Part shown: piece after piece, positions 27,034 through 46,646 of the stretch | Numbering within the stretch: the first letter of the stretch is position 1 | How the letters are laid out: the number at the start of each line of letters is the position of its first letter | NCBI GenBank assembly: GCA_964428655.1 | Contig: CAYRYE010000001.1 | Location: 73,328 to 137,327 of the forward strand | Origin: an uncultured Gammaproteobacteria bacterium | GTDB taxonomy: Bacteria > Patescibacteriota > Microgenomatia > UBA12405 > JAHJSD01 | Direction: 5' to 3' | Length of the DNA: 64,000 nucleotides | Notes under the pieces: model-generated | Seen by the model: the letters and a program-made list of their open reading frames with translations, nothing else | Databases searched by the model: none | Told to the model about the DNA's origin: nothing | Made by a program: the position numbers and the translations under genes

Positions 27034-27097
27034 TTTTGTTGTGCCAACCAGAGGCGTTCGCTACACGCCTGTGTTATAATTCTTACGTACTTTAAAA

Positions 27098-27172
27098 TCC
27101 CCGGTAGCTCAATGGTAGAGCGTCCGGCTGTTAACCGGCAGGTTGCTGGTTCGAGTCCAGCCCGGGGAGCCA
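27098..27172 (+). tRNA. tRNA-Asn (anticodon GUU), CCA encoded
   Basis: Acceptor TCCCCGG/CCGGGGA, D-arm GCTC-AATGGTA-GAGC, anticodon loop CTGTTAA, T-arm GCTGG-TTCGAGT-CCAGC, then G-CCA. Confidence 0.85.
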
Positions 27173-28642
27173 ATCCCTACTTACTCTAACTTTTCTCGAG
27201 TTAAGTAGTTTTTGAAAGAGTGGCGTATAGGTAACTTTCGCCACTTTTTTGTTTTTAATATCAAACCTCTCAAAGAATATAGCTAAGTAGTGTCTTTTAG
27301 CTTCAAAGCCAGCATTACAGTAGACTTCGTAAATGTTGTTGGTGAGCTTTAAGACTTCCTCTATAACGTCTACGTCAAAGCCTCTTTGGTTTTCGATAGT
27401 GGCTATCTCATTCTCCAGGTTTTGAATTTGAAAGTTAAGGTCTTGGTGTTTACGTTTGAAGGACTCTTTATCAATAGTTTTATCTAAGAGATTATCCTCC
27501 AAGATATTACGTTTATCCTCAAACTTTTTAATAGCATTGCGTACACCTTGAATTTCACTGTCTCTTGATTGTCGAGACTGTTTAACCAAGCTCTTTGCTT
27601 TGTCTAATACTGCTTGGGTAAACTCTTCTGATAACTCTATCTTCTTAAACTCTTTAGCTACTGCGTCTTCAAGCTCATCTAGAGGTATATAGTGGCTACA
27701 GCCATTTCTAGCACTACCATGATAATAAGCTTTGTTTTTAGCGTGAACACCATCACCATATAGGCGGGCGTCACATTCTTGGCAGTAGGCGAAGCCATTT
27801 AAGAGCCATTTATACTTTCTTCTTCTACAAGCATTATGGTTATGACGAGCCATTATCTTTTGACAGGTTTCAAATATTTCTGGTGTCGTTAAGGGGTCGT
27901 GTTTGCCTTTGTAAAGTTGGTCTTTATACTTCATCCACTTAATGTAGAAGGGGTTTTTAAGCATTTCATAAACTATACTTCGGTACATTTTTTTACCAGT
28001 TTTGCTTCTTAAGCCTTTGTCATTAATATGGTCAACTAACTCATCAACAGAGTAGTTGCCTGTAGAGTAAAGGCGAAATAACTCACTAACGAGGGAACTT
28101 TTTTCTTTATCCATCTTTATGACACGTTGAGGTTTGTCTTCGGAGCCGAGATTGACGTTTTTATAGCCAAGTGGAGCCCAGCCAGGCCAATCACCATTTT
28201 GGAGCTTCTTTTCTAAGCTTTTTTTCACCTTTCTACCCAACAATCGACTATAAAAAGCATTGGTCCCAGCAAGGATTGTTTCAAAAAACATCCCCTCTGG
28301 AGAATCATTTATCATTGGTTGATTAACTGCAATATATTTGGTCCCTGCTTTTTTAAGAGAATCTATGATATTAAAATGGTCTAGCTCGTTTCTAGCAATT
28401 CTATCCGTGTCAATTGTTAGAGCAACATCTATTTTTTCTTCTTGGCAATTAATAATCATATCGTCTAAAGCTTCTCGCCCAACTGTTTTTGTGCCTGATT
28501 TTCCACCGTCTTCAAATATACCCACTACTTGATAGCCATTCTTTTTGGCCCACTCGGCACATCTTTCCTTCTGAACGTCAAGAGAAAATCCGCCCACTTG
28601 TCCTGGGTCTGATACTCTAGAATAAATAACTGCTTTCTTCAT
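27131..28642 (-). CDS. large serine recombinase (phage-type integrase)
   Basis: N-terminal resolvase catalytic domain (AVIYSRVSDPGQ...DRIARN), central recombinase domain, and a Cys-rich zinc-ribbon region. The last 14 codons (LPGLDSNQQPAG) are encoded by the antisense of tRNA-Asn. Confidence 0.85.
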   Translation of the reverse strand: MKKAVIYSRVSDPGQVGGFSLDVQKERCAEWAKKNGYQVVGIFEDGGKSGTKTVGREALDDMIINCQEEKIDVALTIDTDRIARNELDHFNIIDSLKKAGTKYIAVNQPMINDSPEGMFFETILAGTNAFYSRLLGRKVKKSLEKKLQNGDWPGWAPLGYKNVNLGSEDKPQRVIKMDKEKSSLVSELFRLYSTGNYSVDELVDHINDKGLRSKTGKKMYRSIVYEMLKNPFYIKWMKYKDQLYKGKHDPLTTPEIFETCQKIMARHNHNACRRRKYKWLLNGFAYCQECDARLYGDGVHAKNKAYYHGSARNGCSHYIPLDELEDAVAKEFKKIELSEEFTQAVLDKAKSLVKQSRQSRDSEIQGVRNAIKKFEDKRNILEDNLLDKTIDKESFKRKHQDLNFQIQNLENEIATIENQRGFDVDVIEEVLKLTNNIYEVYCNAGFEAKRHYLAIFFERFDIKNKKVAKVTYTPLFQKLLNSRKVRVSRDWLPGLDSNQQPAG

Positions 28643-28896
28643 ACTTTATGACTCCTTTCTTCAAATTCACGAACACCGTTTATGATGCTATTACACATTT
28701 TGCTTTCTGGGGTTGAGTCCTCTATGGTTTGGGAGTTTGCCTTAACAATCCTTCCCCTTGATTCAATAATCTGCTTAACATGTTTCCAGGCAGGATAGAC
28801 GCCATGAACAAAACGAAAGCCAACTTCAGACAGTCTAACCTCAGCTAGTTTTTGAGCCATTAATTCTAACCAGTTGTTTGATGTTTGTTTAGTCAT
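28639..28896 (-). CDS. hypothetical protein (85 aa), translationally coupled to the integrase
   Basis: Its start overlaps the upstream gene's stop and its stop overlaps the integrase start. Confidence 0.45.
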   Translation of the reverse strand: MTKQTSNNWLELMAQKLAEVRLSEVGFRFVHGVYPAWKHVKQIIESRGRIVKANSQTIEDSTPESKMCNSIINGVREFEERSHKV

Positions 28897-29720
28897 AGGT
28901 GTGCAAGTAGTCCTTCAATTTGTTTAATATCTTTTTGCTCTTTTTTCACCTGGTGTGTGTATTTATCTATATTAATGTTGGCTTTAATAGCCGTCTCAAT
29001 CTTGTTTACTAACACGTCTGGGGGGAGAGCATCTAATTCGGTGGCAATATCGCCATACTTTTTTACAATTTTTTTTGCTCTTTTATCTGTTGATTTAGTT
29101 GGGTCTGTTGGTAGTTTGTGATTGACAATATCATCGTAAGTTAAAGCAATAACTTCTATATCAGGGTGCAAGTTAAAATGTTTTTCAAACCTATCTTGAA
29201 TATCTCTGGGTATATCTACTCCAGTGGGGTCAAAGTCTCCGAGGTATAAAATCTTGGTATTATCGTCAATTCGACTTGAAGCTTCGTAGATAGCGGATAA
29301 ACTTGGATAACCTCTGCTGATTTGTAAGTAAACATCATATCTTGCAGTTATCGGTTCCAATACGCTGGCTAAAGCATCTTTTTCGCACCACACTTCTAGA
29401 TGGAAGCCTTGGTCAATCAAAAGCCTTCTTTTGTAGGCTTTTTTAACTGTTTTGAAAAAGTCTTTGGGATTGGTCCAAGAAGAGGGTTTAATAGGGTTTC
29501 TGGTTCTATCGACTATGCGGTCGTAGGAAATGAGTCCTGACTCTCTTGCCCTAGAAATTAGCCTACCTAAGTTTTTGTATGACCTGTTGGTATTGGGGAG
29601 TAGTTGTTTGACTACAAAGCGATAATATAACTGTCTAAGTGTTAGCGGCATTGAATATTCAGCAATTATCTTATTGGCTTCGCTGATTTTTTGCAGTGAA
29701 CTTGGTATAAAATTATGCAT
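28893..29720 (-). CDS. minimal topoisomerase VI subunit A / Spo11-like protein (Mini-A-like)
   Basis: Winged-helix region with adjacent tyrosines (TLRQLYYRFV, resembling the 5Y-CAP catalytic-Tyr region) plus a Toprim domain with EKDA...GYP...LGDFDPTGVDI (the E...DxDxxG acidic triad). Only 275 aa and no B subunit nearby. Confidence 0.6.
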   Translation of the reverse strand: MHNFIPSSLQKISEANKIIAEYSMPLTLRQLYYRFVVKQLLPNTNRSYKNLGRLISRARESGLISYDRIVDRTRNPIKPSSWTNPKDFFKTVKKAYKRRLLIDQGFHLEVWCEKDALASVLEPITARYDVYLQISRGYPSLSAIYEASSRIDDNTKILYLGDFDPTGVDIPRDIQDRFEKHFNLHPDIEVIALTYDDIVNHKLPTDPTKSTDKRAKKIVKKYGDIATELDALPPDVLVNKIETAIKANINIDKYTHQVKKEQKDIKQIEGLLAHL

Positions 29721-29789
29721 TTTAGATATACTCAGATATTACTAGATGTTACCATTATACACCAGGACGTACACTCAGTCAAGACTGGG

Positions 29790-29818
29790 TTGACTTAGAA
29801 CGCACCAGATACTATAAT
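29790..29818 (+). promoter_or_regulatory. near-consensus sigma-70 promoter (TTGACT-N17-TATAAT) with an overlapping inverted repeat
   Basis: TTGACT at 29790-29795, TATAAT at 29813-29818. The palindrome AGTCAAGACTGGGTTGACT (29777-29795) overlaps the -35 box. The ATG of the downstream gene is 9 nt after the -10 box. Confidence 0.55.
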
Positions 29819-29827
29819 AACTAACTA

Positions 29828-30076
29828 ATGAGTGAAATAGCATATGTTCATACCATAGAAGACGTAGCGAAAATGTTTGGAGTTAATCCAGAAACAGTTA
29901 GGCGCTGGTGTCGTAGTGGGAAGCTTAAGTTTTTCAAGCTTCCAGGGAAAAAAGGTGAATATCGTATTTCTATGGAAGACATAAAAGATTTTATAGCAAG
30001 ACAGAACACTGAAGGTTTTAGTGATGATGGGGTGGCCCAGGGTTTAGGAACTCACATTTCAAAGAAGGATAGCTAA
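29828..30076 (+). CDS. helix-turn-helix DNA-binding protein, excisionase/AlpA-like
   Basis: VEDVAKMFGVNPETVRRWCRSGKLKFFKL is an MerR/Xis-type HTH. Divergent from the integrase module. Confidence 0.65.
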   Translation: MSEIAYVHTIEDVAKMFGVNPETVRRWCRSGKLKFFKLPGKKGEYRISMEDIKDFIARQNTEGFSDDGVAQGLGTHISKKDS

Positions 30077-30839
30077 CTATCAACTATTTACTCTTATTCT
30101 CTTATAACCCCACTTATGATTTTACTTGTTTGCTAAATATGGCTTTCATATAAGTGGAGTTGTATATTTAAGCGGCTCCTGACTTGAAGAAAATCCTTAA
30201 CTCTTCTTTTTAGCCTTGTTTTCATTGAATAGACTCTTTTTTGCATAGAGTCGTTGCTAACTTTTGAGTGGCATATATTGCCGTATCTTTGGATTCTTTT
30301 TATGTATTATTCCTATTGATACCATCCTGAATGATTCATCAGGAAATTAAGCCCCTCCCACAAAAAGTAGGTTCTTTTAATCTTTAGTCGGAATAGAGGT
30401 GATGTGCGGGTAAAAAAATACCATCCCGAACGACAACTCTTCCTCGCCGAGTTGCAGGCGACAGGTTTCTTACTACTACTCAAACTTGCCCAGGCCCGAT
30501 TACCAAGTGCTTTGCTCTAGCGTTGTAGTAGCCCCCAATACGGTGCTGTTTCTCTTGCGGCTTCTTATAAATGAGCAAAGAAGCCACAAAGATGAGCCAT
30601 GACTGGCTGACCCTCTGGGTTTGCACATCCAGGAAGTCTCGTTTGAGCTTCCTTACACCAATTTAGGTGTCAAAATGCCTCTATTCTATTTTTAACGTCC
30701 AACATATCGCTTTTAGGACGAGGTCTAAAGACCACAATTAGATATGTGGCAAGTAGCTTTACCTAAGCTAGTCTTGCTTTGTGACTAAAACTTGGTCTTT
30801 TACGACCTCTCGACTTAAAGTCGGACTTTGACTAATGAA

Positions 30840-31472
30840 TTAGTTATTTGCTAAGCAATTTTGATATTTCTCAACAAACAACTGGTTATACTTTTCCTCT
30901 TCCTTTGAACTAAACTTTTTATCTTTTATTAGTGATAGCTTGTGTCGATGAAATTTTGAATTTTTACCCAAGCCTGGACTTACGCCTCCATAACCACATT
31001 TTTTAGCTGGTATGACCCAAACCTCAGTTGGAATTAAAGGGCTGATGTTGTCTATATAAAACAAACAAACATAATAAGCGACTTTGTGTCTTAAATCTTT
31101 GTTTTTTATCCTAAAAACAGGCTTTTTGAAGTGGGATGTTTTGACATTAACTTTGTCTCCACGCCAGATTAAATCAACGGCATGCTTATCATCAATAAGC
31201 TCAATATCTACAACATTTTCTCTAAAGTATGGGTGTCCGAGAATATAAAGCTCTCCAAGTCTACCCTTACCAGAATTGTTGTTATAAAGATGAAGTTTGG
31301 GGATTCTAGGAAGCCCGTATTTGCGCATCCAGTAAATGATTGTTCCATTGAATACGCCGAAGTAGTTGCCAACTCTTCTAGTTGAGCCTAACTCGTCGTA
31401 TTTAGTTTTAAGAACATCTTTGTTTTTGTATTCCATTGAATCTCCTGGACATGACAGAATTAAACCTGACAC
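30840..31472 (-). CDS. hypothetical protein with N-terminal HTH-like segment (possible nuclease)
   Basis: 210-aa ORF. The likely real start is at MEYKNKD (around 31436). No confident family assignment. Confidence 0.45.
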   Translation of the reverse strand: MSGLILSCPGDSMEYKNKDVLKTKYDELGSTRRVGNYFGVFNGTIIYWMRKYGLPRIPKLHLYNNNSGKGRLGELYILGHPYFRENVVDIELIDDKHAVDLIWRGDKVNVKTSHFKKPVFRIKNKDLRHKVAYYVCLFYIDNISPLIPTEVWVIPAKKCGYGGVSPGLGKNSKFHRHKLSLIKDKKFSSKEEEKYNQLFVEKYQNCLANN

Positions 31473-31692
31473 TCAGGAGATTCTTTTCTCCATTACCTAA
31501 AAACTAGACGGAAATATGGAGGGGCACAAAAAAAGGAGCCCTTTTACCCATATTCTTGGGTCTATGACTCCTACAAAGAGGTACTTAAACTAAAACTTTT
31601 ACTATATCTAGTATATCGACTCCCTTCCTTTTGTCAATAAGGAGCTGTATAATTAAGTATAGTTCCTCATTTATGAGTAAAGTAGAGGTAGT

Positions 31693-31875
31693 ATGAAAAA
31701 ACTGTTGACCATACGCCAAGCGGCGGAGTTATTAAGCGTAAACATTGAAACCCTTAGACGGTGGGATAGAAAAGGTAAATTAAAGGCTGTTAGGGTTGGC
31801 AGTCGTCACGGTGTTGGTGACCGTCGTTATAAACAAGAAGACATTGAAAAATATATAAAGAAAAACAGTAAATAA
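31693..31875 (+). CDS. helix-turn-helix excisionase-family DNA-binding protein
   Basis: LTIRQAAELLSVNIETLRRWDRKGKLKAVRVG is a classic MerR-like/Xis HTH. Confidence 0.6.
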   Translation: MKKLLTIRQAAELLSVNIETLRRWDRKGKLKAVRVGSRHGVGDRRYKQEDIEKYIKKNSK

Positions 31876-31898
31876 GTTAAAAGAAAATTAAGAGAATT

Positions 31899-33437
31899 AT
31901 GACAAAAAAATCTACAGCTAATCTTGGTTTTGAAAAGAAATTGTGGGCCGCCGCAGATAAACTTCGTGGCAATATGGACTCGAGCGAGTATAAACATGTT
32001 GTTTTGGGTCTGATTTTTCTTAAATACATATCCGATTCTTTTGAAGATACTTACCAATCAATTAAATCTGATAAAGACGCTTTTGATGGCGAGTGGGAAG
32101 ATAAAGACGCTTACAAGGCTAGAAACGTCTTCTGGGTGCCAGAAAAGGCACGTTGGGATTATCTCAAGCAAAACGCCAAGAAACCTGAAATAGGAAAAAT
32201 CGTAGACGATGCCATGATAGCCATTGAGAAGGATAACCCTACTCTCAAAGGTGTATTACCTAAAAGATTTGCCCGTCCAGACTTAAATAAACAGCGTTTG
32301 GGCGAGATTGTTGATATTTTTAGCTCTCTTGGTCTAGGAGACAAAGAATCCAAGGCTCAAGATATTCTAGGTAGGGTTTATGAATACTTTATTGGTAGAT
32401 TTGCCAGTGCTGAGGGCAAAGGTGGCGGTGAGTTTTACACTCCAGCTTCGGTGGTCAAACTTTTAGTGCAGATGATAGAGCCCTACAAGGGCAGAGTTTA
32501 TGACCCCTGCTGTGGTAGTGGGGGTATGTTTGTGCAAAGCGAAAAGTTTGTCGAAGAACATGGGGGCAAGACTAACGATATTGCAGTCTATGGACAGGAA
32601 AGTAACCCCACAACTTGGCGTCTCTGTAAGATGAATCTAGCCATACGAGGTATTGAGGGGAACCTTGGTTCATCTGATGCTGATAGCTTCCACAATGACC
32701 AACATAAAGACTTAAAAGCTGACTTTATTCTAGCCAATCCTCCTTTTAACGACAGCGATTGGGGTGGAGAAAGATTAAGAGATGATGTGCGCTGGAAATA
32801 TGGCACGCCTCCAACTGGTAGTGCTAACTATGCTTGGATTCAGCATTTTATCCATCATTTATCCCCTTCGGGTATTGCTGGCTTTGTAATGGCCAATGGG
32901 GCTTTGTCTTCAAACACTTCTAATGAAGGAAAGATAAGAGAAAGCTTGATAAAAGCTGGTTTAGTGGATTGCATTGTGGCTTTACCAGATAAGCTTTTTT
33001 ATACCACGGGTATCCCAGCCTCTTTATGGTTTGTATCTAGAGATAGACATAATCATAAATTCCGTGACCGCCACAATGAAATTCTTTTTATCGATGCCCG
33101 CAAGCTAGGTAAAATGATAGACCGTAGGCATAGAGAATTGACAGAAGCTCAACTCAAACAAATTTATGACACATATCACAACTGGAGAAATAAAAACGGC
33201 AAATATGAGGACGTCAAAGGATTCAATAAAGCCGCCAAGATTGAAGAAGTAGAAAAGAATGGCTTTGTATTGACTCCTGGTCGCTATGTGGGTACAGATT
33301 TTGAAATGGAGGATGACGAATTTTTCGAAGAGAAAATGAAAAGACTCACCAATGAGTTAAGTCAACAGTTCAAAGAGTCAAAGGAATTAGAAAAGAAAAT
33401 TAAAGAAAATTTAACAAAAGTTGGATTTAAGCTATGA
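31899..33437 (+). CDS. hsdM: type I restriction-modification system methyltransferase subunit HsdM
   Basis: N6-adenine MTase motif I ([12 protein letters not shown]) and motif IV (ILANPPFN). HsdM N-terminal domain is present. Confidence 0.9.
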
Positions 33438-34003
33438 AACAAAAATTAATACTTTTCCATAAGAGAATTGAAAGATTAAAGCTGAATAAGGACTTCTTTG
33501 TTAGTAGTCGTGTGAATATTAACTATGAGAAAGACAGAGGAACGTACACTTCTTTTAAGGGCCCTGATACTAAGACGGTGAAGGCATTTCTTTTAGATTT
33601 TAGGCCATTTGTATTAAATGATGAGCCGATAAATTTTGACCATATCAGTAACTTGGTTTACAAAACAAGTCCTGACAATAAAGTCAAAGAAAATACTGCC
33701 AAAGCAAAAGATGGTTGGAATAAACTACTGGAGCGTAAGAAATCATCCCCCGTTGGTGGATTAAGGCTTCAGATTGATGGGAAACAACTTTTATCTCAGG
33801 AGAACTTGGATATGTGGTTAAATGCCGACTATTTTCATCTAGATGAAAATAAACGAGATTTAATGACAAGGATTAGCAGTAACCCAATGGGTCAAATTTC
33901 TTATTTTGTTTTTGTTGATTTATTGCAACGTCTGAGTCAAATGTTGTTTTGGTTTGATAACAAAGTAATAAATCCAATTTTAGGTAAACACAAATCTAAA
34001 TAA
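33434..34003 (+). CDS. hypothetical protein nested between hsdM and hsdS
   Basis: Its start overlaps the hsdM stop (ATGA). 189 aa, no recognisable domain. Confidence 0.5.
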
Positions 34004-34007
34004 AACT

Positions 34008-34514
34008 ATGGACAATTTTTTTATAAAAATTTATACAGAGCAGATAAAAGACCAGCTTAGTGAGGCTGAACTTTGTTTTGAGAAAATTAAAAACAACTTA
34101 AAAAATAGCCCTGTTGTGTTTGGTGCAATCCATCACTTTTTGGTGCACGTCTCTAATGTAGCTAAATTGATACAACCGAAAACTAAGGAAGATAATGATT
34201 TTCGAAAATACAGAGCCATCTCACTTAAGAGAGCATACCCCAATTTGCCAACCCTTAATCCAAATGAAATCCATGTTCGAAATGATTATGAACATTACGA
34301 TGAAAGAATTGACCATTGGGTTATTAACTCTAAAAAACACAATTATGCAGATAAAAACATTGGTCCAATCACGGCAATTAAAGGTTTAGAACCAAAAGAT
34401 AATTTTAGGTGGTTTGACGATACAAAAATGACACTTTATTTCTGTGGCAGAGAATATCATCTGGACGATTTGTTTTCATACATTCAAAAAGTTAAAAAAG
34501 CAATAAATGAATAA
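34008..34514 (+). CDS. hypothetical protein, possible HEPN-like (Rx4H motif) accessory protein
   Basis: 168 aa. Contains RNDYEH (an Rx4-6H motif) in a predicted helical context. Its stop overlaps the hsdS start. Confidence 0.4.
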   Translation: MDNFFIKIYTEQIKDQLSEAELCFEKIKNNLKNSPVVFGAIHHFLVHVSNVAKLIQPKTKEDNDFRKYRAISLKRAYPNLPTLNPNEIHVRNDYEHYDERIDHWVINSKKHNYADKNIGPITAIKGLEPKDNFRWFDDTKMTLYFCGREYHLDDLFSYIQKVKKAINE

Positions 34515-35790
34515 TAAACAAGTTAATTACAAGCAGACAGAAATTGGTGAGGTTCCTAAAGACTGGCAAGTGGAACCAGTTTCCAGAGCTTCAGAAATAA
34601 TAAGTGGCGGTACTCCCAAAACATCTAAAGCTGAATACTGGGGCGGAAAAATACCCTGGTTGTCAGTTGCAGATTTCAATAATGAGCAAAGATATGTTTA
34701 TGATTCAGAAAAAACTATAACGGAAAAGGGATTAAACGGTAGTAGCACAAATATCCTTAAAAAGGAAATGTTGATTATCTCGGCGAGAGGTACAGTAGGT
34801 GTGTTGGCTCAAGTTGGCAGAGACATGGCCTTTAACCAATCCTGTTACGGCTTGAATTCAAAACAAGGTTATATTAACGATTTTCTTTACTACTCTCTTA
34901 AAAGTCGCATGGGCGCTATAAGACAAAAAACTCATGGTTCCGTTTTTTCAACTATCACGAAAAGAACTTTTGATGATATTTTTTTACCCAAACCAAAAGT
35001 TGAAGAACAACAACAAATAGCCTCAGTTCTTTCTTCTCTCGATGACAAAATTGAGCTGAATCGCAAAATGAACCAGACCCTTGAAGAAATGGGTAAAGCT
35101 CTTTTTAAGAATTGGTTTGTAGACTTTGAATTCCCTAATAATGAGGGAAAACCATATAAATCAAGCGGTGGCAAAATGGTGGAGAGTGAGCTCGGAGAGA
35201 TACCAAAAGGATGGGATGTTGCACAATTAAAAGAATTTGGAGAAATAGTTTGTGGTAAAACACCTCCAAAAAAGAAAAGTGAGTATTTTGGCGGAAATGT
35301 TCCGTTTATCAAAATACCAGATATGCACAGTCAAATGTTTATAGTTAAGACGGAAGACTCTCTAACTAAGGAAGGTATGGATTTTCAAAAACAGAAAAAT
35401 TTGCTAAAAGATTCTATCTGTGTAAGTTGTATTGCCACAGTAGGGTTAGTTTGCATCACAAGCCAGGTGTCTCAAACCAATCAACAAATTAATTCAATTG
35501 TTCCAAGTGAGAGATTTTATAGGGAATATTTGTATTTCACACTGAGTTCAATGGACAGGACTTTAAGAGATTATGCAAGCGGAGGCTCGGCAACGCTAAA
35601 TCTAAATACAGGTAGTTTTTCGAAAATATATATCCTAAAACCAAGCAAGGAGACTTTACAACTGTTTAATGAGCACAACTCAAATTTATTTGAAAAAGTT
35701 TTAATGAATGAAAAGGAAAACATAAACCTTGCTCAAGCTCGAGACTCTCTTCTACCAAGATTAATGAGTGGGAGGTTGAGAGTAAATTAA
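34507..35790 (+). CDS. hsdS: type I restriction-modification system specificity subunit HsdS
   Basis: Two target-recognition-domain halves separated by a central conserved region (LDDKIELNRKMNQTLEEMGKALFKNWFVDFEFP) and a C-terminal conserved repeat (LLPRLMSG). Confidence 0.85.
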   Translation: MNNKQVNYKQTEIGEVPKDWQVEPVSRASEIISGGTPKTSKAEYWGGKIPWLSVADFNNEQRYVYDSEKTITEKGLNGSSTNILKKEMLIISARGTVGVLAQVGRDMAFNQSCYGLNSKQGYINDFLYYSLKSRMGAIRQKTHGSVFSTITKRTFDDIFLPKPKVEEQQQIASVLSSLDDKIELNRKMNQTLEEMGKALFKNWFVDFEFPNNEGKPYKSSGGKMVESELGEIPKGWDVAQLKEFGEIVCGKTPPKKKSEYFGGNVPFIKIPDMHSQMFIVKTEDSLTKEGMDFQKQKNLLKDSICVSCIATVGLVCITSQVSQTNQQINSIVPSERFYREYLYFTLSSMDRTLRDYASGGSATLNLNTGSFSKIYILKPSKETLQLFNEHNSNLFEKVLMNEKENINLAQARDSLLPRLMSGRLRVN

Positions 35791-35792
35791 GT

Positions 35793-36932
35793 ATGAAAAA
35801 ATATCAATTAACCAGAGTATCAAGTAACGTAGCCAGAACAGATGACATTGTTATTGAGGAAAGCGGTACTTTTAGAAAAGTGTTTCGTGGAATTGTTATT
35901 AAAGACAATCCAAAAGACCCCAAGGCGACACTGAAAGGCTACATTATTGTTCAAAGAAAGGGGCCTAGGGACGAATGGAAAGACTTGTCTTCAATAAAGT
36001 TGAATGAGTTGAAAAAAGATGAAGGTATAAAATTTGAATTAAAAAGTTTAGCATTACAAAATTTATTTGAGGCATTAAATAACTTATATCGTATTTCAAA
36101 ACAAGAATTGCCCTGGTTAGAGGAGAGCTATGTTGTAGCTAAGGAAGAAGAAATTATCAGGGTTAGTGAAAAGAGGAAAAGTTTTGTAAAAAAATTGCTC
36201 AAACAGGATTATGGAAATGAAGTTTGGGAACAATTGATTGAAACTGAACCCCATCTAGCCACAAGATTAGCTCATTCAAGGATACAAACAGAGCGAGAGT
36301 CTGCTCTCGCTGAATTTGAGGCATCATTGAGCGAAGAAAAGGGTGAAGCGTACTGGCAAACATTCTTTCAAGAAAATGAATGGATTTTTGGGCTGGGTCT
36401 AAAATACCAATATCTACATTTAATTACAGCTCAACCAGATTATGGTGGTGGTAATGTTTTTGGTTCTGGTAGTCAAAGAGGCGACTATCTTATGGACACC
36501 ACGTCTGATAGCAAATTTACAGTTTTGGTAGAAATTAAGAAGCCAGAAACGCCGCTTCTCGGTAGTGATGAGTATAGAAATGGAGCATGGGAATTGGGAG
36601 AAGATTTAGTTGGTGGTGTTTCTCAAATTCAAGTGAATGCTAATAAGTGGGAGGTGGCTGGTTCAAGAACCGATGAAAACAGAGAAGCGTTAGAAGACGT
36701 GACGACATGTAGTCCAAAGGGTCTTTTAATAATTGGGCATTGTGACCAGCTTGATAGTGCCTCAAAAAAGAAAACCTTTGAATTGTATAGGCAAAATTTA
36801 GTTAATCCAGAAGTAATTACCTTTGACGAACTGCATGAAAGGGCAAAATTTATAGTTAACAACTCATCAGATGAAACTTCACCTGAGCCTGTAGAAGTTG
36901 ATATTTCAGAGGATGAAAAAATACCTTTTTAA
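35793..36932 (+). CDS. Shedu-like DUF4263 family PD-(D/E)xK nuclease (SduA-like) nested in the type I R-M operon
   Basis: C-terminal region [16 protein letters not shown]...RGDYLMDTT...[15 protein letters not shown]...VSQIQVN...LLIIGH matches the DUF4263 pattern (WQxFF..N.WIFG, D...vEiK, Q). Confidence 0.55.
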
Positions 36933-36934
36933 GT

Positions 36935-39900
36935 ATGACTAAATACACAGAAACAGACCTAGAATTAGCAACATTAGACTGGCTTGAAGAGCTTGGTTAT
37001 ACCATTGTGGGTGGTCCAGAAATTGCACCACCTCCAGATGGGGAAAGACCAGAGCGCAAAAGCTATTCTGATGTTGTTTTGGAAGACAGGCTCCGTTCTG
37101 CTATTGAGCAATTCAACCCTGGTATTCCAGAAGATGCCAAAGAAGAAGCTTTTAAGAAGGTCTTGCAGGCCACTAATACCACACCCAGCCTTGTACTTAA
37201 CAACAAAATATTTCACTCATATTTGAGGGATGGTGTGGATGTTGAGTATATGCGAGATGATGGTTCTGTTGCTGGAGATAAAGTAAAACTAGTTGACTTC
37301 AAAAATATTGATAAGAATGATTTTCTGGCAGTTAACCAGTACACAGTTATTGAAAACAACGTAAACAGACGCCCTGATGTGGTGGTATTTATAAATGGGT
37401 TGCCTGTAGTTGTTATTGAACTTAAAAACCCAGGTGACGAGAAGGCCACAGTTAAAAGTGCCTTTAACCAGATTCAGACCTACAAGCAAGATATTCCCTC
37501 ACTCTTTGTATATAACGAGCTATCAATTATTAGCGATGGCCTAGAGGCTAAAGTAGGCACCATTAGTGCTGATATTGAGTGGTTTACTCGCTGGAGAACA
37601 GTTGATGGTGAAGAATTGGCCCCCAATGCTGTACCTCAGCTAGAAGTTTTACTAAAAGGTATTTTTGATAAAACAAGACTTTTGGATTTAATAAGCAATT
37701 TTATTGTTTATGAAACCGATGGTGAGAAAACAATTAAAAAGGCCGCCGCCTATCATCAATACTTTGCAACTAATAAAGCTATTGAAAGCACCATTAAAGC
37801 AACCATGGAGGAGGGAGATAGAAGGGCTGGTGTAGTTTGGCATACTCAAGGGTCTGGCAAGAGTTTAACCATGACCTTTTATGCAGGCAAGGTGATACAA
37901 GCTCTAAACAACCCCACTCTGGTAGTTTTGACCGATAGAAATGACTTGGACAATCAGCTTTTCGGTACATTCTCCAGGTGTTCAGATTTACTTAGGCAAG
38001 CACCTAAGCAGGCTAATGATAGAGATGAGTTGCAAGAACTTTTAAGTGTTGCTTCTGGTGGTGTGGTATTTACGACAATACAGAAGTTTTTACCTGAAAA
38101 TGGACATAATACTTACCCACAACTTTCTGACAGAAAAAACATTGTTGTTGTAGCCGATGAAGCTCATAGAAGCCAATATGAATTTATCAAAGGCTTTGCT
38201 CGTCACATGCGTGATGCTCTGCCCAATGCTTCGTTTATTGGTTTTACAGGTACTCCAGTTGAATTGATGGATAGGAATACAAGAGCAGTTTTTGGTGAGT
38301 ATGTTGATGTTTATGATGTAACCAGAGCAGTTGAAGATAAGGCCACGGTGCCTATTTATTACGAAGCTAGACTAGCAAGAATAGAACTGAAAAAAGATGA
38401 GCAACCTAAGATTGACCCTGAATTTGAAGAGTTAACCGAAGGTGAAGAGGTAGAACGTAAGGAAAAACTAAAGAGTAAATGGGCCAGGCTTGAGGCTATG
38501 GTTGGCTCAGAAAAAAGAATTAGTTTGGTGGCCCGTGACTTAGTTGAGCATTTTGAGAATCGATTAACTGCAATTGAAGGAAAAGGAATGATAGTTGCCA
38601 TGAGCAGAAGGATTGCGGTGGACCTGTATAACGAGATTATTAAACTTCGACCTAACTGGCATAGTGACGATGATAAAAAGGGTGTATTGAAGGTAGTTAT
38701 GACTGGTTCAGCCTCTGACCCTTTGATTTTCCAACCACATATTAGACCCAAACACGCCTTAAATGAATTAGCTGGTAGGATGAAAGACCCAGATGATGAG
38801 ATGAAGTTAGTGATTGTTAGAGATATGTGGCTAACTGGTTTTGATGTTCCTTGTCTTCACACTATGTATATAGATAAACCAATGAAAGGTCATGGTTTGA
38901 TGCAGGCTATTGCTCGGGTAAACAGAGTTTACAAAGACAAGCAAGGTGGTTTGATAGTTGACTACATTGGCATAGCTCCCCAACTAAAAGAAGCCCTTTC
39001 TTATTACTCGGCAAGTGACAGGCAAGAAACAGCTATACCGCAAGACAAGGCAGTTTCTCTGATGCTTGAAAAATACGAAGTGGTTAAGGGCATGTATCAC
39101 GGCTTTGACTATCAAAAATACTTAACAGGTACTCCAGCAGAGCGAACCCAGACTATTTCAGGCGCTACAGACTATATATTGGGGCTTAAAGATGGCAAGA
39201 AACGCTACTTAAAGGCAGTTTCTGAGCTATCTAAGGCATTTTCTTTGGCTGTTCCTCATGATGAGGCAATTAAGATTAGAGATGAGGTTTCTTTCTTCCA
39301 GATTGTACGAAGCGGGATTGTAAAAATGGAGCCTGTAGGCGGTGGTCCAACTGATGATGACTATGATGTGGCTATCAAACAAATAGTATCTTCTGCGGTT
39401 GCTTCAGACCATGTGATTGATATTTACTCTGCCGCTGGGATAAAAGCCCCAGATATTTCTATATTTTCAGAAGAGTTTTTAGCTGAAGTTAGGAACATGA
39501 AGCACAAGAATGTGGCTTTGGAATTGTTAAAGAAACTTTTGAATGATGAGCTTAGAACCATGACTAAAAAGAACTTGGTTATGTCTCGGTCCTTTTCTGA
39601 CATGCTGGCTGAGACTATCCGTAAATACCAGAATAGAACCCTTGAAGCGGCTCAAGTGATAGCCGAACTTTTAGAACTTGCTAAAAAGATACGAGATGAA
39701 AAAGATAAGGGTAAGGATTTAGGTTTGAGTGAAGACGAAGTGGCTTTTTATGATGCTTTGGCAAATAACGAAAGCGCAGTAAAAGAGCTGGGAGACAAAA
39801 CGCTCAAAGCTATGGCAATAGAGTTGGTTGATATGCTTCGCAAGAATACCACGATTGACTGGACTATAAAGGAAAGTGTCCAGGCTAAGCTGAGAGTTTA

Positions 39901-40015
39901 CATTAAAAGATTGCTGAAGAAATATAAGTATCCGCCAGACAAGCAAGAGGGAGCTACTAAGATAGTATTAGAACAGGCAGAGTTACTAGCTAAAGATTGG
40001 ACAGGAGAAAAATAA
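36935..40015 (+). CDS. hsdR: type I restriction enzyme R subunit HsdR
   Basis: 1026 aa with SF2 helicase motifs TQGSGKS (Walker A), VADEAHRSQ (DEAH), and a C-terminal HsdR domain. Confidence 0.9.
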
Positions 40016-40393
40016 ATGACTCAACTACAAATATATCCCATCAAATGTGAATGCGGTAACTTGATAGATGTTAACCTCTATCAAAGTGTAAATGTCACGG
40101 TAGACCCATCGCTTCTTGGAAAAGTAAAGAAAAGAAAAATAAACAACTATAAGTGTGATAAGTGTGGTGCAGAAAGTGAGCTTGCATATCAATTTTTATT
40201 TGTTGATATGAAAAAAGGAATCTGGGTATGGTGTTATCCAGAAGCGGAAAGAAAAAACAAAGACAAAATTGAGGAAGAACTTCTAAAAACGCAAGCTTTG
40301 GAAAATATGTTACAGAAACTCGGACAGCCCAAGCCCACAATAGTATTTGGCTACGATGAGCTTTTAGATAAATTAGATTCAAACAAAAAATAA
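40016..40393 (+). CDS. zinc-ribbon small protein (two CxxC-type pairs)
   Basis: CECGN...CDKCG. Its start abuts the hsdR stop. Confidence 0.45.
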   Translation: MTQLQIYPIKCECGNLIDVNLYQSVNVTVDPSLLGKVKKRKINNYKCDKCGAESELAYQFLFVDMKKGIWVWCYPEAERKNKDKIEEELLKTQALENMLQKLGQPKPTIVFGYDELLDKLDSNKK

Positions 40394-41151
40394 TGTCTCA
40401 ATACTACAACGCCAAACGTTCAATAAAATATTGCTACCAGCCAGGGTCTAAACAACCTTTTAAGTTTAGTCGTTCAAAGATTGACCTATTTTTACAATGT
40501 CCAAGGTGTTTTTATATGGATAGGCGCCTGGGTGTTGCTAGACCTCCTGGATTCCCTTTTGCCTTGAATAGTGCCGTAGATAAGCTTCTAAAGCTCGAGT
40601 TTGACGCTCACAGGGTCAATGGCACCCAACATCCTCTACTTGAGAAATATGACGTGGATGCTAAACCAGTAGCTCACGAAAAACTAGATGACTGGAGACA
40701 AAACTTTGTAGGGGTTCAGTATTTGCACAAACCCACTAACTTATTAGTCTTTGGAGCAATTGATGACTTATGGATTAACTCTAAGGATGAATATATTGTG
40801 GTTGATTATAAATCTACAAGTAAAGGTGAAGCGATAACTGAACTAGATAAGGATTGGCACGAAGGCTATAAACGCCAGATGGAGATTTACCAGTGGTTGT
40901 TAAGGCAGAATGAGTACAAAGTTTCCGATACTGGTTACTTTGTTTACTGTAATGGCATTACTGACAAGAAAGCCTTTGATGCCAAGCTTGAATTTAATGT
41001 GACCTTAATCGCTTATGAGGGAAATGATAACTGGGTTGAGAAAGCTATTAAGGGCGCACACAAATGCTTAAACGGTGACTCAATCCCTGAAGCTGGTGAA
41101 GATTGTGACTATTGTGCTTATAGGGAAGCGGTAAAGGAGATTGAGTCTTAA
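40393..41151 (+). CDS. PD-(D/E)XK nuclease, Cas4/RecB-like with Fe-S cysteines (second paralog in window)
   Basis: N-terminal LQCPRCFY, nuclease core GAIDDL...EYIVVDYKS, QxxxY-like RQMEIYQ, and C-terminal HKC...EDCDYC. Confidence 0.65.
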   Translation: MSQYYNAKRSIKYCYQPGSKQPFKFSRSKIDLFLQCPRCFYMDRRLGVARPPGFPFALNSAVDKLLKLEFDAHRVNGTQHPLLEKYDVDAKPVAHEKLDDWRQNFVGVQYLHKPTNLLVFGAIDDLWINSKDEYIVVDYKSTSKGEAITELDKDWHEGYKRQMEIYQWLLRQNEYKVSDTGYFVYCNGITDKKAFDAKLEFNVTLIAYEGNDNWVEKAIKGAHKCLNGDSIPEAGEDCDYCAYREAVKEIES

Positions 41152-41230
41152 ATACGGATGCTTGGTTAACTGTTTAGATGCGAACACTTTTTATAAAAAT
41201 CTTTAACTTAAGCAAAAGATGGTAAAAGGT

Positions 41231-44226: not shown

Positions 44227-44295
44227 GCTGGATTAGTCAACACACGTTGGTTTTAACAGAGGGAAGTACTGTAGTTTGAGTGTTGTTATTTTGAA

Positions 44296-44448
44296 TTAAA
44301 GTCTTACAAACTCTCCATTACTTACTTTCACCACTGCATACTTTGGTTTAGACACTAAGACCCTGTTAAGAACCTCTAACTGGTTTTTCACTCTTGCCAA
44401 AGACTCACCAGAGAAGATGTCATAGAGAACAAATGGGGAACCTGGGAG
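44296..44448 (-). repeat. copy 1 of a 150-bp duplicated gene-3' module (encodes ...PGSPFVLYDIFSGESLARVKNQLEVLNRVLVSKPKYAVVKVSNGEFVRL)
   Basis: About 80% nt identity to 46026-46178. The tracked ORF 44296..44622 extends it upstream with unrelated sequence antisense to the HIT gene. Confidence 0.6.
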
Positions 44449-44526
44449 CTCTGTATTTTTCCTCAAGTAGTGTGGATGACCCGAATGGGATGCTCGAACC
44501 TTTGGTTGGTGTAGAATTGAGGAAAT

Positions 44527-46020: not shown

Positions 46021-46025
46021 ATCAA

Positions 46026-46178
46026 TTATAGTCGAACAAGCTCTCCATTGCTAACTTTTACCACCGCATACTTTGGTTTTGCAATTAAGACTCTATTAAG
46101 AACTTCTAACTGATTCTTTACCCTCGCTAAAGACTCTCCAGAGAAGATGTCATAGAAGACAAATGGGGAACCTGGAAA
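46026..46178 (-). pseudogene. copy 2 of the duplicated 3' module, in frame with the upstream membrane-protein ORF and separated from it by a single TAG
   Basis: Translation FPGSPFVFYDIFSGESLARVKNQLEVLNRVLIAKPKYAVVKVSNGELVRL*. Frame continuity checked codon by codon across the TAG at 46179-46181. Confidence 0.5.
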
Positions 46179-46646
46179 CTAGAGAGAGGTTGTTTTGAAT
46201 TTTTTTTCGTCTACCCAAGACAGAATGGAAAATAGAATAATTAAAATAAAGCCAGGAAGCAGGTGGTTTCTCCACCCAGGACCTAGAAGTTTCTGAACAC
46301 CAAATGTTACAGGAACCATAAAAAGTATTGCTATTACTGCAATATGATTATCTCCTTTAACATTAGATTTTTTATCAAGACTTAGGAGTTTTCCAACAAT
46401 TTTCAGAAACACAAATAGCAAAACTAAATATATTGGGAGGGCAAAAATAAAATATGAACGATAGCTGATTGCGAAAATTTCAGAAAATCTTGTTGCTAAA
46501 AAATGGTCCCACGGTTGTTCTGTGGCGAAGGCACTAAAGTCTTTTTGAAAGAAAATTACTCTAAGCCAGTTAAAAAGAATTAAAGAAACATTTATGACAT
46601 AAAGAAGAAGAAAGGGAATCTTGGCAATTTTGGAATTTATGCCCAT
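46179..46646 (-). CDS. hypothetical membrane protein (155 aa)
   Basis: 4 predicted TM helices. The C-terminus ends at a TAG that is in frame with the downstream 50-codon conserved module. Confidence 0.5.
   Translation of the reverse strand: MGINSKIAKIPFLLLYVINVSLILFNWLRVIFFQKDFSAFATEQPWDHFLATRFSEIFAISYRSYFIFALPIYLVLLFVFLKIVGKLLSLDKKSNVKGDNHIAVIAILFMVPVTFGVQKLLGPGWRNHLLPGFILIILFSILSWVDEKKFKTTSL

What the first reader, a model, noticed from the sequence alone, without database searches (positions are those of the whole stretch)
28893..29720. Minimal topo VI-A / Spo11-like (Mini-A-type) protein next to the integrase
The 275-aa protein carries both halves of a type IIB topoisomerase A-subunit catalytic core. 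One is a winged-helix segment with adjacent tyrosines (LRQLYYRF) where Spo11/Top6A has its catalytic Tyr. The other is a Toprim domain with the EKDA glutamate and a DFDPTG acidic pair. No B-subunit (GHKL ATPase) gene is nearby. Small Top6A homologues without B subunits ('Mini-A') have been described on plasmids and integrated elements, and their function is unknown. Here it is operonic with a small unknown ORF and the serine recombinase, which suggests a role in element DNA processing (excision or replication nicking) or in defence (compare Wadjet JetD, also Top6A-like).
Basis: partly seen in the sequence, partly recalled or inferred. Interest (0 to 1): 0.7.

Follow-up and report, generated by a model that had tools for sequence, protein, structure and literature searches.

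The report
Mini-A topoisomerase-like gene in defence island
The gene encodes a genuine "Mini-A", a small stand-alone relative of the DNA-cutting subunit of topoisomerase VI/Spo11, which belongs to a large, already described family of unknown function and here sits in a 14-kb mobile island beside its integrase.

Summary
The ORF at 28893-29720 (-) encodes a 275-aa protein with LRQLYYRF, EKDA and DFDPTG.

It belongs to the published Mini-A family (Takahashi 2020):
- It is 34% identical over 99% of its length (E 1e-41) to the Pseudomonas phage NP1 protein, one of the paper's example Mini-As.
- It matches phrog_6247 "DNA topoisomerase" at E 1.7e-67.
- Arg29, Tyr33, Glu113, Asp162, Asp164, Gly167 and the ELDAL box are conserved in every aligned sequence of 166 relatives.
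- No B subunit is encoded in the 64-kb window.

The gene lies in a ~14-kb island at tRNA-Asn. The operon is Mini-A, orf85 and a serine integrase, joined by ATGA overlaps. The cargo is a type I restriction-modification system plus Shedu, with no virion genes detected.

Two sister islands, with integrases 86% and 71% identical, keep orf85-integrase but lack Mini-A. Mini-A is therefore an accessory gene, not an obligate integrase partner.

Elsewhere the family sits mainly in phage replication modules. Its likeliest role is Tyr/Mg2+-dependent cleavage and rejoining of DNA for the element's own replication, which is inferred, not shown. This is a new member of a known kind.

The parts
28893..29720 (-). 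Mini-A gene: 275 aa, a stand-alone Top6A/Spo11-like protein made of an N-terminal winged helix carrying the Tyr and a Toprim domain
29622..29636 (-). Codons for R29-Q-L-Y32-Y33, the RxxYY motif. Y33 is the predicted catalytic tyrosine and R29 its partner arginine.
   Evidence: Codon mapping. R29 and Y33 are present in 165/166 relatives, with one gap. The profile alignment places TLRQxYY on TLREAYY of 1d3y, ending at chain residue 35, but that aligned stretch is not significant on its own. PMC7671362 names R99 and Y103 as the 5Y-CAP residues of that protein. Matching chain residue 35 to Y103 assumes that the crystallised construct starts at residue 69, which is from my own knowledge.
29220..29384 (-). 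Toprim metal-binding residues: E113 (29382-29384) and D162-x-D164-P-x-G167 (29220-29237)
   Evidence: All are 166/166 conserved. In the model E113 follows strand 107-112 and the DxD follows strand 155-160, the canonical Toprim positions from general knowledge of the fold. GDFDPTG aligns to TDGDPYG of Top6A 1d3y.
29025..29045 (-). T2BI-type box ATELDAL (residues 226-232), the signature that separates Mini-A from Topo VI and Topo VIII
   Evidence: E228 and D230 are 166/166, A231 162/166 and L232 160/166. Position 227 is W in 137/166, and T only in this protein. The box is defined as xWELDAL in PMC7671362.
28639..28896 (-). orf85, a small ORF of unknown function that is translationally coupled between Mini-A and the integrase
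   Evidence: ATGA overlaps at both ends. Only 3 relatives were found among 5.8 billion proteins. For the two whose contigs were examined (P0266 and P0267), the gene lies upstream of and co-oriented with the homologous integrase, separated from it by a 54-aa ORF. No Pfam, PHROG, NCBIfam or PADLOC hit.
27131..28642 (-). Large serine recombinase (integrase), 503 aa; its last 42 nt overlap the 3' part of tRNA-Asn
   Evidence: Resolvase E 6e-29, Recombinase and Zn_ribbon_recom. phrog_95 integrase E 2.7e-88.
27098..27172 (+). tRNA-Asn(GTT), at the left edge of the island
   Evidence: ARAGORN. Rfam tRNA 70.6 bits. The sister island L177 sits at tRNA-Asn in the same way.
29754..29818 (.). Back-to-back promoter-like sites (TTGACT-17-TATAAT on each strand) in the 107-bp gap between Mini-A and the divergent HTH_17 gene
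   Evidence: Two 11/12 consensus matches, at 29782-29754 (-) and 29790-29818 (+). These are consensus matches only. The total count in the region is no higher than in shuffles.
29828..30076 (+). HTH_17 / excisionase-family DNA-binding protein (82 aa), divergent from the Mini-A operon; a candidate regulator or excision factor
   Evidence: PF12728 E 2.4e-15. TIGR01764 excisionase family, 33.6 bits against a cut-off of 28.8. Homologues occupy the same position in L176 (59% identical) and L177 (47%).
27131..41151 (.). The ~14-kb integrative island. Backbone: integrase, orf85 and, at the far end, a PD-(D/E)XK nuclease at 40393-41151. Variable middle: Mini-A, two HTH_17 genes, ORF210, hsdM, two unknown genes, hsdS, Shedu sduA, hsdR and CpXC.
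   Evidence: Pfam. DNA homology to sister island L177 is limited to 27096-28649, 28758-28887 and 40393-41144. The exact right-hand junction was not found.

Best explanation
[quoted passage not shown] It lacks the N-terminal B-subunit-binding part and has no ATPase partner.

Shown here:
- It has a winged-helix plus Toprim fold.
- The full catalytic set is conserved in every aligned sequence of 166 relatives: Arg29/Tyr33, Glu113, Asp162/Asp164, and the ELDAL dimer-interface box.
- It is the first gene of an operon with orf85 and a large serine integrase.
- It sits in a ~14-kb island at tRNA-Asn whose cargo is a type I restriction-modification system plus Shedu.
- Mini-A is an accessory insertion into a conserved integration module.

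Inferred:
- By analogy with Top6A, it acts as a homodimer. Tyr33 of one protomer and the Mg2+ site of the other would attack the DNA backbone, forming a 5'-phosphotyrosyl link and a free 3'-OH, and could then reseal the break.
- Because it is co-transcribed with the integrase, it would be made when the island mobilises and would act on the island's own DNA.
- The most likely job is starting or supporting replication of the excised circle. That could be a Rep-like nick that primes rolling-circle synthesis, or ATP-independent relaxation or decatenation. Taking part in recombination is less likely.
For: Family identity:
- phrog_6247 E 1.7e-67.
- E 1e-41 to the phage NP1 protein, one of the Mini-As shown in the defining paper.
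- E 3e-33 to archaeal records annotated 'Topo mini-A'.
- 14,362 cluster representatives (50% identity clusters) match the family profile.

Fold:
- AF2 pLDDT 94.
- Foldseek's best three hits are Top6A chains.
- Top6A 1d3y is the only PDB hit of the family profile, and the Tyr and DxD motifs are in register.

Catalytic residues are conserved in every aligned sequence.

Operon: ATGA overlaps and a promoter-like site upstream.

Replication context in relatives:
- Neighbours are primase, DnaB, DNA polymerase, Gp2.5-like SSB, exonuclease and excisionase-like HTH proteins. Others are a DnaG zinc ribbon, Phage_rep_O, DUF3854 and G2P Rep.
- In two small circular replicons Mini-A is the only recognisable DNA enzyme: the 15.1-kb Paenibacillus durus plasmid with a Zot ATPase, and the 8.8-kb archaeal P-7H_11.
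- Medvedeva et al. proposed the same initiator role for skuldviruses.
- No other replication gene was recognised in this island.
Against: - No Mini-A has been tested biochemically, and the function was still called unknown or unexplored in 2024-2026 texts.
- In some relatives Mini-A sits beside a rolling-circle Rep (G2P-type in L004; WyrdV4), so it is not simply a Rep substitute.
- Nothing here shows that the island excises or replicates. No circular junction or empty site was found.
- Dimerisation and in-trans active sites are assumed from Top6A, not modelled.
- The signature Trp of the T2BI box is Thr in this protein alone, so altered regulation or activity is possible.
- Sister islands do without Mini-A, so it is dispensable for the island's basic life cycle.
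Confidence: 0.55

Rival explanations
1. Mini-A is an accessory or directionality factor of the adjacent serine integrase. It would bind or bend att DNA, or contact the integrase, to drive excision.
For: It shares an operon with the integrase through coupled start and stop codons. A Mini-A, then small ORF(s), then a serine recombinase on the same strand recurs in W, L002, L005, L008, L150, L165 and L170. In addition, 6 of the 10 sequences in the window's Mini-A clade have a serine recombinase within 2.5 kb, against 3 of 156 elsewhere. Known directionality factors of serine integrases are unrelated to one another, and some also act in replication, for example Bxb1 gp47 (own knowledge).
Against: The closest integration modules lack Mini-A altogether: L177 (integrase 86% identical, same tRNA-Asn target) and L176 (71%). 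Conservation of the Tyr and metal site in every aligned sequence would be needless for a purely architectural factor. Only 10 of 160 relatives' loci have any serine recombinase within 10 kb, and many relatives are in virulent phages. Better candidates sit in the same module: the excisionase-family HTH_17 protein and orf85, which travels with the integrase in the relatives examined.
Confidence: 0.07
2. Mini-A is a defence or counter-defence nuclease, comparable to JetD/MksG of Wadjet. It would be carried as cargo alongside the type I restriction-modification system and Shedu.
Against: No jetABC/mksBEF or any SMC-type gene was found in the window. The JetD similarity covers only the Toprim core. 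From my own knowledge, JetD/MksG cut by hydrolysis without a catalytic Tyr, whereas Tyr33 is conserved here in every aligned sequence. Mini-A lies in the integration operon, not in the cargo block. The family sits mostly in phage replication modules, including virulent phages. A counter-defence role in phages is not excluded.
Confidence: 0.1
3. It is the A subunit of a split type IIB topoisomerase. Its ATPase partner (a 'Mini-B') would be encoded elsewhere in the genome or by a helper phage.
For: In about 6 of 160 relatives' loci a protein of roughly 480 aa with GHKL-like N-box and G1-box motifs lies within about 0.3-0.8 kb of Mini-A. Its HATPase_c hits are sub-threshold (E 8e-4). Another 476-aa family and a 631-aa protein in L004 also neighbour Mini-A, but they have no Pfam hit. 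Takahashi et al. left this possibility open.
Against: Nothing of the kind was found in this window. Its only GHKL domain is a HisKA sensor kinase 25 kb away. Mini-A lacks the N-terminal 5Y-CAP segment through which Top6A binds Top6B, and it is 275 aa long. The great majority of relatives' loci have no such neighbour.
Confidence: 0.1
4. It is a Toprim ribonuclease of the RNase M5 type, as some databases name its relatives.
Against: The similarity covers the Toprim core only. Top6A, MksG and Spo11 score higher and match the two-domain order. The conserved winged-helix RxxYY motif has no counterpart in RNase M5 (own knowledge). The gene is carried by a mobile element and lies among DNA-replication genes.
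Confidence: 0.02

Closest known systems
Mini-A (Topo mini-A) subfamily of type IIB topoisomerase A subunits (Takahashi et al. 2020, PMC7671362)
   Same: Size (275 aa against about 300). It has the second half of 5Y-CAP plus Toprim, RxxYY, E...DxDxxG, a C-terminal ELDAL box, no B subunit, and a mobile-element location. It shows direct homology to the phage NP1 Mini-A (E 1e-41) and to records annotated 'Topo mini-A'.
   Different: The signature Trp of xWELDAL is Thr, unique among 166 sequences. The host element is not a recognisable virus or provirus. It is a 14-kb tRNA-Asn island with restriction-modification and Shedu cargo, in what is probably a CPR bacterium, and the gene sits inside the serine-integrase operon.
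Topoisomerase VI subunit A (Top6A) and eukaryotic Spo11
   Same: Same two-domain fold and order. The catalytic Arg/Tyr, Toprim Glu and DxD, and the T2BI Glu are all present. Top6A is the best structural match, and Top6A 1d3y is the only PDB hit of the family profile.
   Different: About 100 residues shorter, lacking the N-terminal segment that binds Top6B. No Top6B or Top6BL partner. Pfam PF21180 scores only 16.7 bits against a cut-off of 24.1. It is carried by a mobile element rather than being a chromosomal housekeeping gene.
Topo VIII (plasmid-borne type IIB topoisomerase)
   Same: Carried by mobile elements, lacks the first part of 5Y-CAP, and has the same catalytic residues.
   Different: Topo VIII carries a fused or adjacent GHKL ATPase and transducer, and its box reads RVELNAM. 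This protein has neither.
JetD / MksG nuclease of Wadjet / MksBEFG
   Different: No SMC-like JetABC partners here. Mini-A keeps a conserved catalytic Tyr. The similarity is limited to about 70 residues.
HUH rolling-circle replication initiators (functional analogy only)
   Same: The predicted chemistry, a 5'-phosphotyrosyl link that leaves a 3'-OH primer, is what a rolling-circle initiator needs. Mini-A is the only recognisable DNA enzyme in some small circular replicons.
   Different: Unrelated fold. No nicking site or origin has been identified. Some elements carry both a Rep and a Mini-A.

Membership tests
Mini-A (Takahashi 2020) | Stand-alone protein of about 300 aa made of the C-terminal part of 5Y-CAP (winged helix) followed by Toprim, without the N-terminal Top6B-binding segment | tested here: met
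Mini-A (Takahashi 2020) | R-x-x-(Y/F)-Y with a conserved catalytic Tyr | tested here: met
   R29-Q-L-Y32-Y33. R and Y33 are present in 165/166 (one gap). Position 32 is Y in 153 and F in 12.
Mini-A (Takahashi 2020) | Toprim E followed by DxDxxG | tested here: met
   E113 and D162-F-D164-P-T-G167, all 166/166.
Mini-A (Takahashi 2020) | C-terminal T2BI box of the xWELDAL type, which discriminates Mini-A from Topo VI and Topo VIII | tested here: inconclusive
   ATELDAL: ELDAL is present, with E228 and D230 at 166/166. The Trp (137/166; Val in 24) is Thr only here. The box is clearly of the Mini-A type rather than RVELNAM, but the signature residue is substituted.
Mini-A (Takahashi 2020) | Significant sequence homology to a published Mini-A | tested here: met
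   Pseudomonas phage NP1: 34.4% identity, 99% coverage, E 1e-41. NP1 is one of the Mini-As in the paper's Figure 2. Archaeal P-7H_11, annotated 'Topo Mini-A': E 3e-33.
Mini-A (Takahashi 2020) | No adjacent B subunit (Bergerat/GHKL ATPase) | tested here: met
   No GHKL gene was found among the ORFs scanned in the 64-kb window apart from a HisKA sensor kinase at 54657-55715.
Mini-A (Takahashi 2020) | Encoded by a mobile genetic element (described as viruses and proviruses) | tested here: met
   It is carried by an integrase-bearing island at tRNA-Asn. No virion genes were detected in or next to the island, so the element is mobile but not demonstrably viral.
Mini-A (Takahashi 2020) | DNA cleavage or topoisomerase activity | not testable with these tools
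   According to the literature read here, this has not been established for any family member.
Canonical Top6A / Spo11 | Full 5Y-CAP including the N-terminal B-binding segment; Pfam Top6A/Spo11 models above threshold | tested here: not met
   PF21180 scores 16.7 bits against a cut-off of 24.1, and there is no TP6A_N hit. The protein is about 100 aa shorter. The family profile gives only E 0.12 against 1d3y.
Canonical Top6A / Spo11 | Partner Top6B / Top6BL encoded alongside | tested here: not met
   None found in the window.
JetD / MksG (Wadjet) | Operon with jetABC / mksBEF SMC-like genes | tested here: not met
   No such genes were found. PADLOC hits are limited to residues 136-219, best E 1.5e-5.
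Recombination directionality factor of this serine integrase | Co-inherited with the integrase in related elements | tested here: not met
   L177 (integrase 86% identical) and L176 (71%) have orf85-integrase but no Mini-A by tblastn.

The most novel reading that the evidence does not exclude
Mini-A is the island's only replication initiator. After the serine integrase excises the 14-kb circle, a Mini-A dimer would nick it through a 5'-phosphotyrosyl link and the free 3'-OH would prime rolling-circle copying. A Spo11/Top6A-type active site would then be doing the job of a HUH Rep protein. This would give the stand-alone ancestor-like A subunit a concrete function. The Mini-A-plus and Mini-A-minus sister islands would form a natural experiment.
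Probability: 0.2. Interest if true: 0.7.

Novelty: new member of a known kind. Interest (0 to 1): 0.35.

Why it matters
Mini-A is the only type IIB A subunit that occurs alone. It bears on how topoisomerase VI and the meiotic enzyme Spo11 arose, and on whether the A-subunit active site can work without an ATPase. Its function is still unknown.

This locus does not answer that question, but it offers a compact setting for a test:
- a 14-kb island with few genes, where Mini-A is the first gene of the integrase operon;
- near-identical backbones elsewhere that lack the gene.

The locus also shows that Mini-A is not confined to recognisable viruses. It is very abundant as well: more than 14,000 clusters at 50% identity match the family profile.

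Tried and rejected
- Single-sequence phmmer against the PDB found nothing. Only the family profile reached Top6A, at E 0.12.
- Foldseek against BFVD viral models gave no useful full-length match.
- NCBIfam gave nothing relevant for Mini-A.
- Search for the island's right-hand junction: no copy of the tRNA-Asn 3' half at up to 3 mismatches anywhere in the window, no long direct repeat bounding the island, and only chance-level blastn-short matches. A shared GTTAAC at 41165-41170 is too short to mean anything.
- Search for an empty site or a syntenic genome without the island: exact 31-mer of the left flank in metagenome contigs, 0 hits. Relatives of the 474-aa flank protein in metagenome contigs, none. 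An exact look-up of that protein returned only island-bearing contigs or contigs that break at the tRNA.
- orf85: no family hit and only 3 homologues. I did not predict its structure because no fold search remained.
- Prophage hypothesis for the island: PHROG and Pfam scans of the unknown ORFs between 33 and 50 kb found no terminase, portal, capsid or tail proteins. Rejected.
- The RNase M5 naming of homologues reflects similarity of the Toprim domain only. Rejected.
- Literature searches for a demonstrated Mini-A function found only the family description and the rolling-circle-initiator suggestion.
Full report
**Observation.** The minus-strand ORF 28893-29720 is intact and ATG-started, and it encodes 275 aa. 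LRQLYYRF lies at residues 28-35, EKDA at 113-116 and DFDPTG at 162-167. A fourth motif, ATELDAL, lies at 226-232. The Mini-A stop overlaps the start of an 85-aa ORF (28639-28896) in ATGA. That ORF's stop overlaps the start of a 503-aa large serine recombinase (27131-28642) in the same way.

**What the protein is.**
- Curated general libraries barely detect it. Pfam gives only sub-threshold hits to DUF2399 (E 0.0034) and to the Top6A/Spo11 Toprim model PF21180 (16.7 bits against a cut-off of 24.1). NCBIfam gives nothing relevant. PADLOC gives weak JetD hits confined to residues 136-219.
- The phage library matches it end to end: phrog_6247 'DNA topoisomerase', E 1.7e-67, residues 3-267.
- A database search found 3,440 homologues. 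A profile of 44 of them matched 14,362 cluster representatives (50% identity clusters), of which 4,021 were at E <= 1e-30. This is a very large family.
- Against phage genomes the protein matches 79 records. One is Pseudomonas phage NP1 (34% identity, 99% coverage, E 1e-41), and many records are annotated 'DNA topoisomerase'.
- NP1 is one of the example Mini-A proteins in the paper that defined the family, Takahashi et al. 2020 (PMC7671362).
- Against plasmid records it matches two 8.8-kb archaeal circular elements annotated 'Topo mini-A' (E 3e-33).

**Family features.** The paper defines Mini-A as follows:
- about 300-aa stand-alone homologues of Top6A;
- lacking the first part of 5Y-CAP;
- carrying RxxY/FY, E...DxDxxG and a C-terminal xWELDAL 'T2BI' box;
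- having no B subunit.

All of these are present here, with one deviation. In 166 aligned relatives:

| Residue(s) | Conservation |
|---|---|
| R29, Y33 | 165/166 (one gap) |
| E113, K114, D162, D164, P165, G167, K209, D212, E228, D230 | 166/166 |
| Signature Trp (position 227) | W in 137/166; Thr only in this protein |

**Structure.**
- AlphaFold2 with the 44-sequence alignment gives pLDDT 94.2 and pTM 0.86. The model has three N-terminal helices and a wing, followed by a beta-alpha Toprim core. E113 follows the first strand and the DxD follows the third.
- Foldseek's three significant hits are Top6A chains, including the 2026 DNA-bound cleavage complex 9o0g.
- The family profile's only PDB hit is 1d3y (E 0.12). 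It aligns TLRQxYY to TLREAYY and GDFDPSG to TDGDPYG. The first of those two aligned stretches is not significant on its own.
- The paper names R99 and Y103 as the 5Y-CAP residues of that protein. The aligned Tyr is chain residue 35. That equals Y103 if the crystallised construct starts at residue 69, which I take from my own knowledge and did not check here.

**Surroundings.**
- tRNA-Asn(GTT) lies at 27098-27172, and the integrase's last 42 nt overlap its 3' part.
- Upstream of Mini-A, a 107-bp gap holds two back-to-back near-consensus promoter-like sites. An excisionase-family HTH_17 gene (29828-30076) is transcribed divergently from it.
- Next come a 763-bp gene-free stretch, ORF210, a second HTH_17 gene, hsdM, two unknown genes, hsdS, a Shedu sduA gene, hsdR, a CpXC gene and a PD-(D/E)XK nuclease ending at 41151.
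- No terminase, portal, capsid or tail gene was detected here or further right.
- The remaining window is host-like. It encodes PBPs, aldolase, DnaG, RpoD, PGK and TIM on the left, and a two-component system, MacAB and BacA on the right.
- The only GHKL domain found in the window is the sensor kinase at 54657-55715.
- The identical protein occurs on a 548-kb contig. The nearest named relatives are candidate-phyla-radiation (CPR) bacteria: Curtissbacteria, Nomurabacteria, Moraniibacteria and Pacebacteria.

**The most informative comparison.**
- orf85 has only three homologues among 5.8 billion proteins.
- Two of them lie in islands whose integrases are 86% (L177, a Pacebacteria MAG) and 71% (L176) identical to this one. 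Both have the same divergent HTH_17 gene. In L177 the target is the same tRNA-Asn and the terminal PD-(D/E)XK gene is 92% identical.
- DNA homology between the window and L177 is confined to tRNA plus integrase (27096-28649), orf85 (28758-28887) and the PD-(D/E)XK gene (40393-41144).
- Neither sister island contains a Mini-A (tblastn). In both, orf85 follows the divergent promoter region directly.
- Mini-A is therefore an accessory gene inserted at the head of a conserved orf85-integrase operon. The island is about 14 kb, with a conserved backbone and an exchangeable middle.
- This argues against Mini-A being the integrase's obligate partner. orf85 or the HTH_17 protein are better candidates for that role.

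**Is the integrase adjacency general?**
- Among 160 loci of relatives (80 genomic and 80 viral contigs), only 10 have a serine recombinase within 10 kb.
- In a neighbour-joining tree, 6 of the 10 sequences in the window's clade have a serine recombinase within 2.5 kb, against 3 of the other 156.
- Mini-A followed by small ORF(s) and a downstream, co-oriented serine recombinase is seen in L165, L170, L002 and L008 of that clade, and also in L005 and L150 outside it. The elements sit in ychF (L165, L002, L008) or at a tRNA-Arg (L005).
- The integrases in those elements are only distantly related to this one (E 1e-10 to 1e-16).
- The link is thus mostly lineage-restricted. It can be explained by CPR elements favouring serine integrases placed at the end of the early operon. 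A functional link is not excluded.

**What the family's context says.**
- Clustering of neighbours, with PHROG labels, shows tyrosine integrases, repressors, excisionase-like HTH proteins, DNA primase/helicase, DnaB, DNA polymerase, Gp2.5-like SSB and exonuclease.
- The closest relatives sit next to a DnaG zinc ribbon, Phage_rep_O, DnaB_C, DUF3854 primase-like and G2P Rep genes.
- Many carriers are phages I know as virulent, such as Xylella phages Sano and Salvo and the Pseudomonas NP1/PaMx25 group (hits; the lifestyle is from my own knowledge).
- In the 15.1-kb circular Paenibacillus durus plasmid, which carries a Zot-type ATPase, and in the 8.8-kb archaeal P-7H_11, Mini-A is the only recognisable DNA enzyme.
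- Medvedeva et al. proposed that Mini-A initiates rolling-circle replication in skuldviruses. The idea was repeated in 2026 without being tested. A 2024 review calls the role of these enzymes unexplored.

**Mechanism.**
- Shown: the fold, the conserved catalytic set, the operon, and the accessory status.
- Inferred from Top6A: a homodimer with composite active sites (Tyr33 and Arg29 from one protomer, Mg2+ on E113/D162/D164 of the other), a 5'-phosphotyrosyl intermediate, and resealing.
- Inferred from context: the enzyme acts on the element's own DNA at the time of mobilisation, most probably in replication initiation or topology.
- My confidence that it is a Mini-A is about 0.95. My confidence that its role is element replication or DNA processing rather than recombination or defence is about 0.5-0.6. 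For the specific rolling-circle-initiator version it is about 0.2.

**Rivals.**
- Directionality factor (0.07): contradicted by the Mini-A-less sister islands.
- Defence or counter-defence nuclease (0.1): no Wadjet partners, the Tyr is retained, and the gene lies in the integration operon rather than the cargo block.
- Split topoisomerase with a distant ATPase (0.1): nothing of the kind was found in this window. However, about 6 of 160 relatives' loci have a GHKL-like protein of roughly 480 aa within about 0.3-0.8 kb of Mini-A.
- RNase M5 (0.02): a naming artefact.

**Novelty and score.** The family, its motifs, the lack of a B subunit and even the replication-initiator idea are already published, so this is a new member of a known kind. 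The new points are modest:
- a non-viral defence-island carrier;
- placement at the head of a serine-integrase operon;
- natural sister islands with and without the gene;
- a unique Trp-to-Thr change in the signature box;
- a possible GHKL partner in a minority of relatives.

Interest: 0.35.

Noticed in passing
window 30077-30839 (hit at 30472-30585, minus strand): A 763-bp gene-free stretch inside the island contains a sub-threshold, full-length match to the EGFOA small-RNA family RF02955 (30.8 bits against a gathering score of 37.7; E 0.001-0.009). A 2026 preprint describes EGFOA RNAs as lying in unusually large intergenic regions and forming RNA oligomers. The folding z-score is only -1.37, so this may be a divergent member or chance.
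   Followed up: partly
L119:11758-13200, L150:7735-9201, L137:7722-9167, L035:2813-3772, L125:11441-12109; also L121:4946-6376 and L004:14252-16147: In some relatives' loci a protein of roughly 480 aa with GHKL-like motifs (ELLQNAWD, DDDPDGF; sub-threshold HATPase_c, E 8e-4) lies within about 0.3-0.8 kb of Mini-A. A second 476-aa family often accompanies it but has no Pfam hit. This could be the 'Mini-B' partner that the family's describers looked for and did not find. It is absent from the window.
   Followed up: partly
window 27131-27172; L177:11867-11896; L005:5734-5778; L002:13122-13189: The serine integrase ORF runs into the target gene. Its last 42 nt overlap the 3' part of tRNA-Asn here, and the same holds in sister island L177. 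In other relatives the integrase end overlaps tRNA-Arg (L005) or the 5' end of ychF (L002, L008). In L167 a 58-aa MMR_HSR1 fragment, possibly a displaced piece of ychF, lies near the far end of the element. No displaced tRNA-Asn fragment was found in the window.
   Followed up: partly
window 31899-41151: A Shedu sduA gene (35793-36932) is nested between hsdS and hsdR of a type I restriction-modification operon. The operon also holds two unknown ORFs between hsdM and hsdS, and ends with a CpXC gene and a PD-(D/E)XK nuclease.
   Followed up: no
L174 (SRR3095939_22492) end and L162 (SRR3095939_43519) end, equivalent to window ~27140-27170: In one public assembly, both the host-flank contig and the island contig stop within the tRNA-Asn 3' half, overlapping by about 31 nt. 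This looks like a branch in the assembly graph, as expected if integrated and empty or excised forms coexist, but it is not proof.
   Followed up: no
window 44294-44450 and 46024-46180; also 45252-45296, 47538-47582, 50188-50232: A 157-nt direct repeat (83% identity, 1,730 bp apart) and a three-copy 45-nt repeat lie to the right of the island, among unknown ORFs and a DUF6602 gene. They are unexplained.
   Followed up: no
L176:6072-6236 and L177:10236-10400: In the sister islands, a 54-aa ORF between orf85 and the integrase resembles the integrase's own N-terminus (about 30% identity, E 1e-4). It looks like a duplicated fragment and is absent from the window.
   Followed up: no
L179 (Paenibacillus durus plasmid NZ_CP009289.1, 15,151 bp): This small circular replicon carries a Zot-type ATPase (as in filamentous phages), a Mini-A (41% identical) and no recognisable Rep protein. 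A 519-aa protein remains unassigned.
   Followed up: partly
window 30840-31472 (minus strand): ORF210 has a weak N-terminal HTH match (HTH_50, E 4.6e-4; PHROG families labelled HNH endonuclease, matching the HTH part only). By eye its C-terminal half has a possible D...(D/E)xK pattern. Its function is unknown, and sister island L177 has a DnaA/IstB-like ATPase in the equivalent slot.
   Followed up: no
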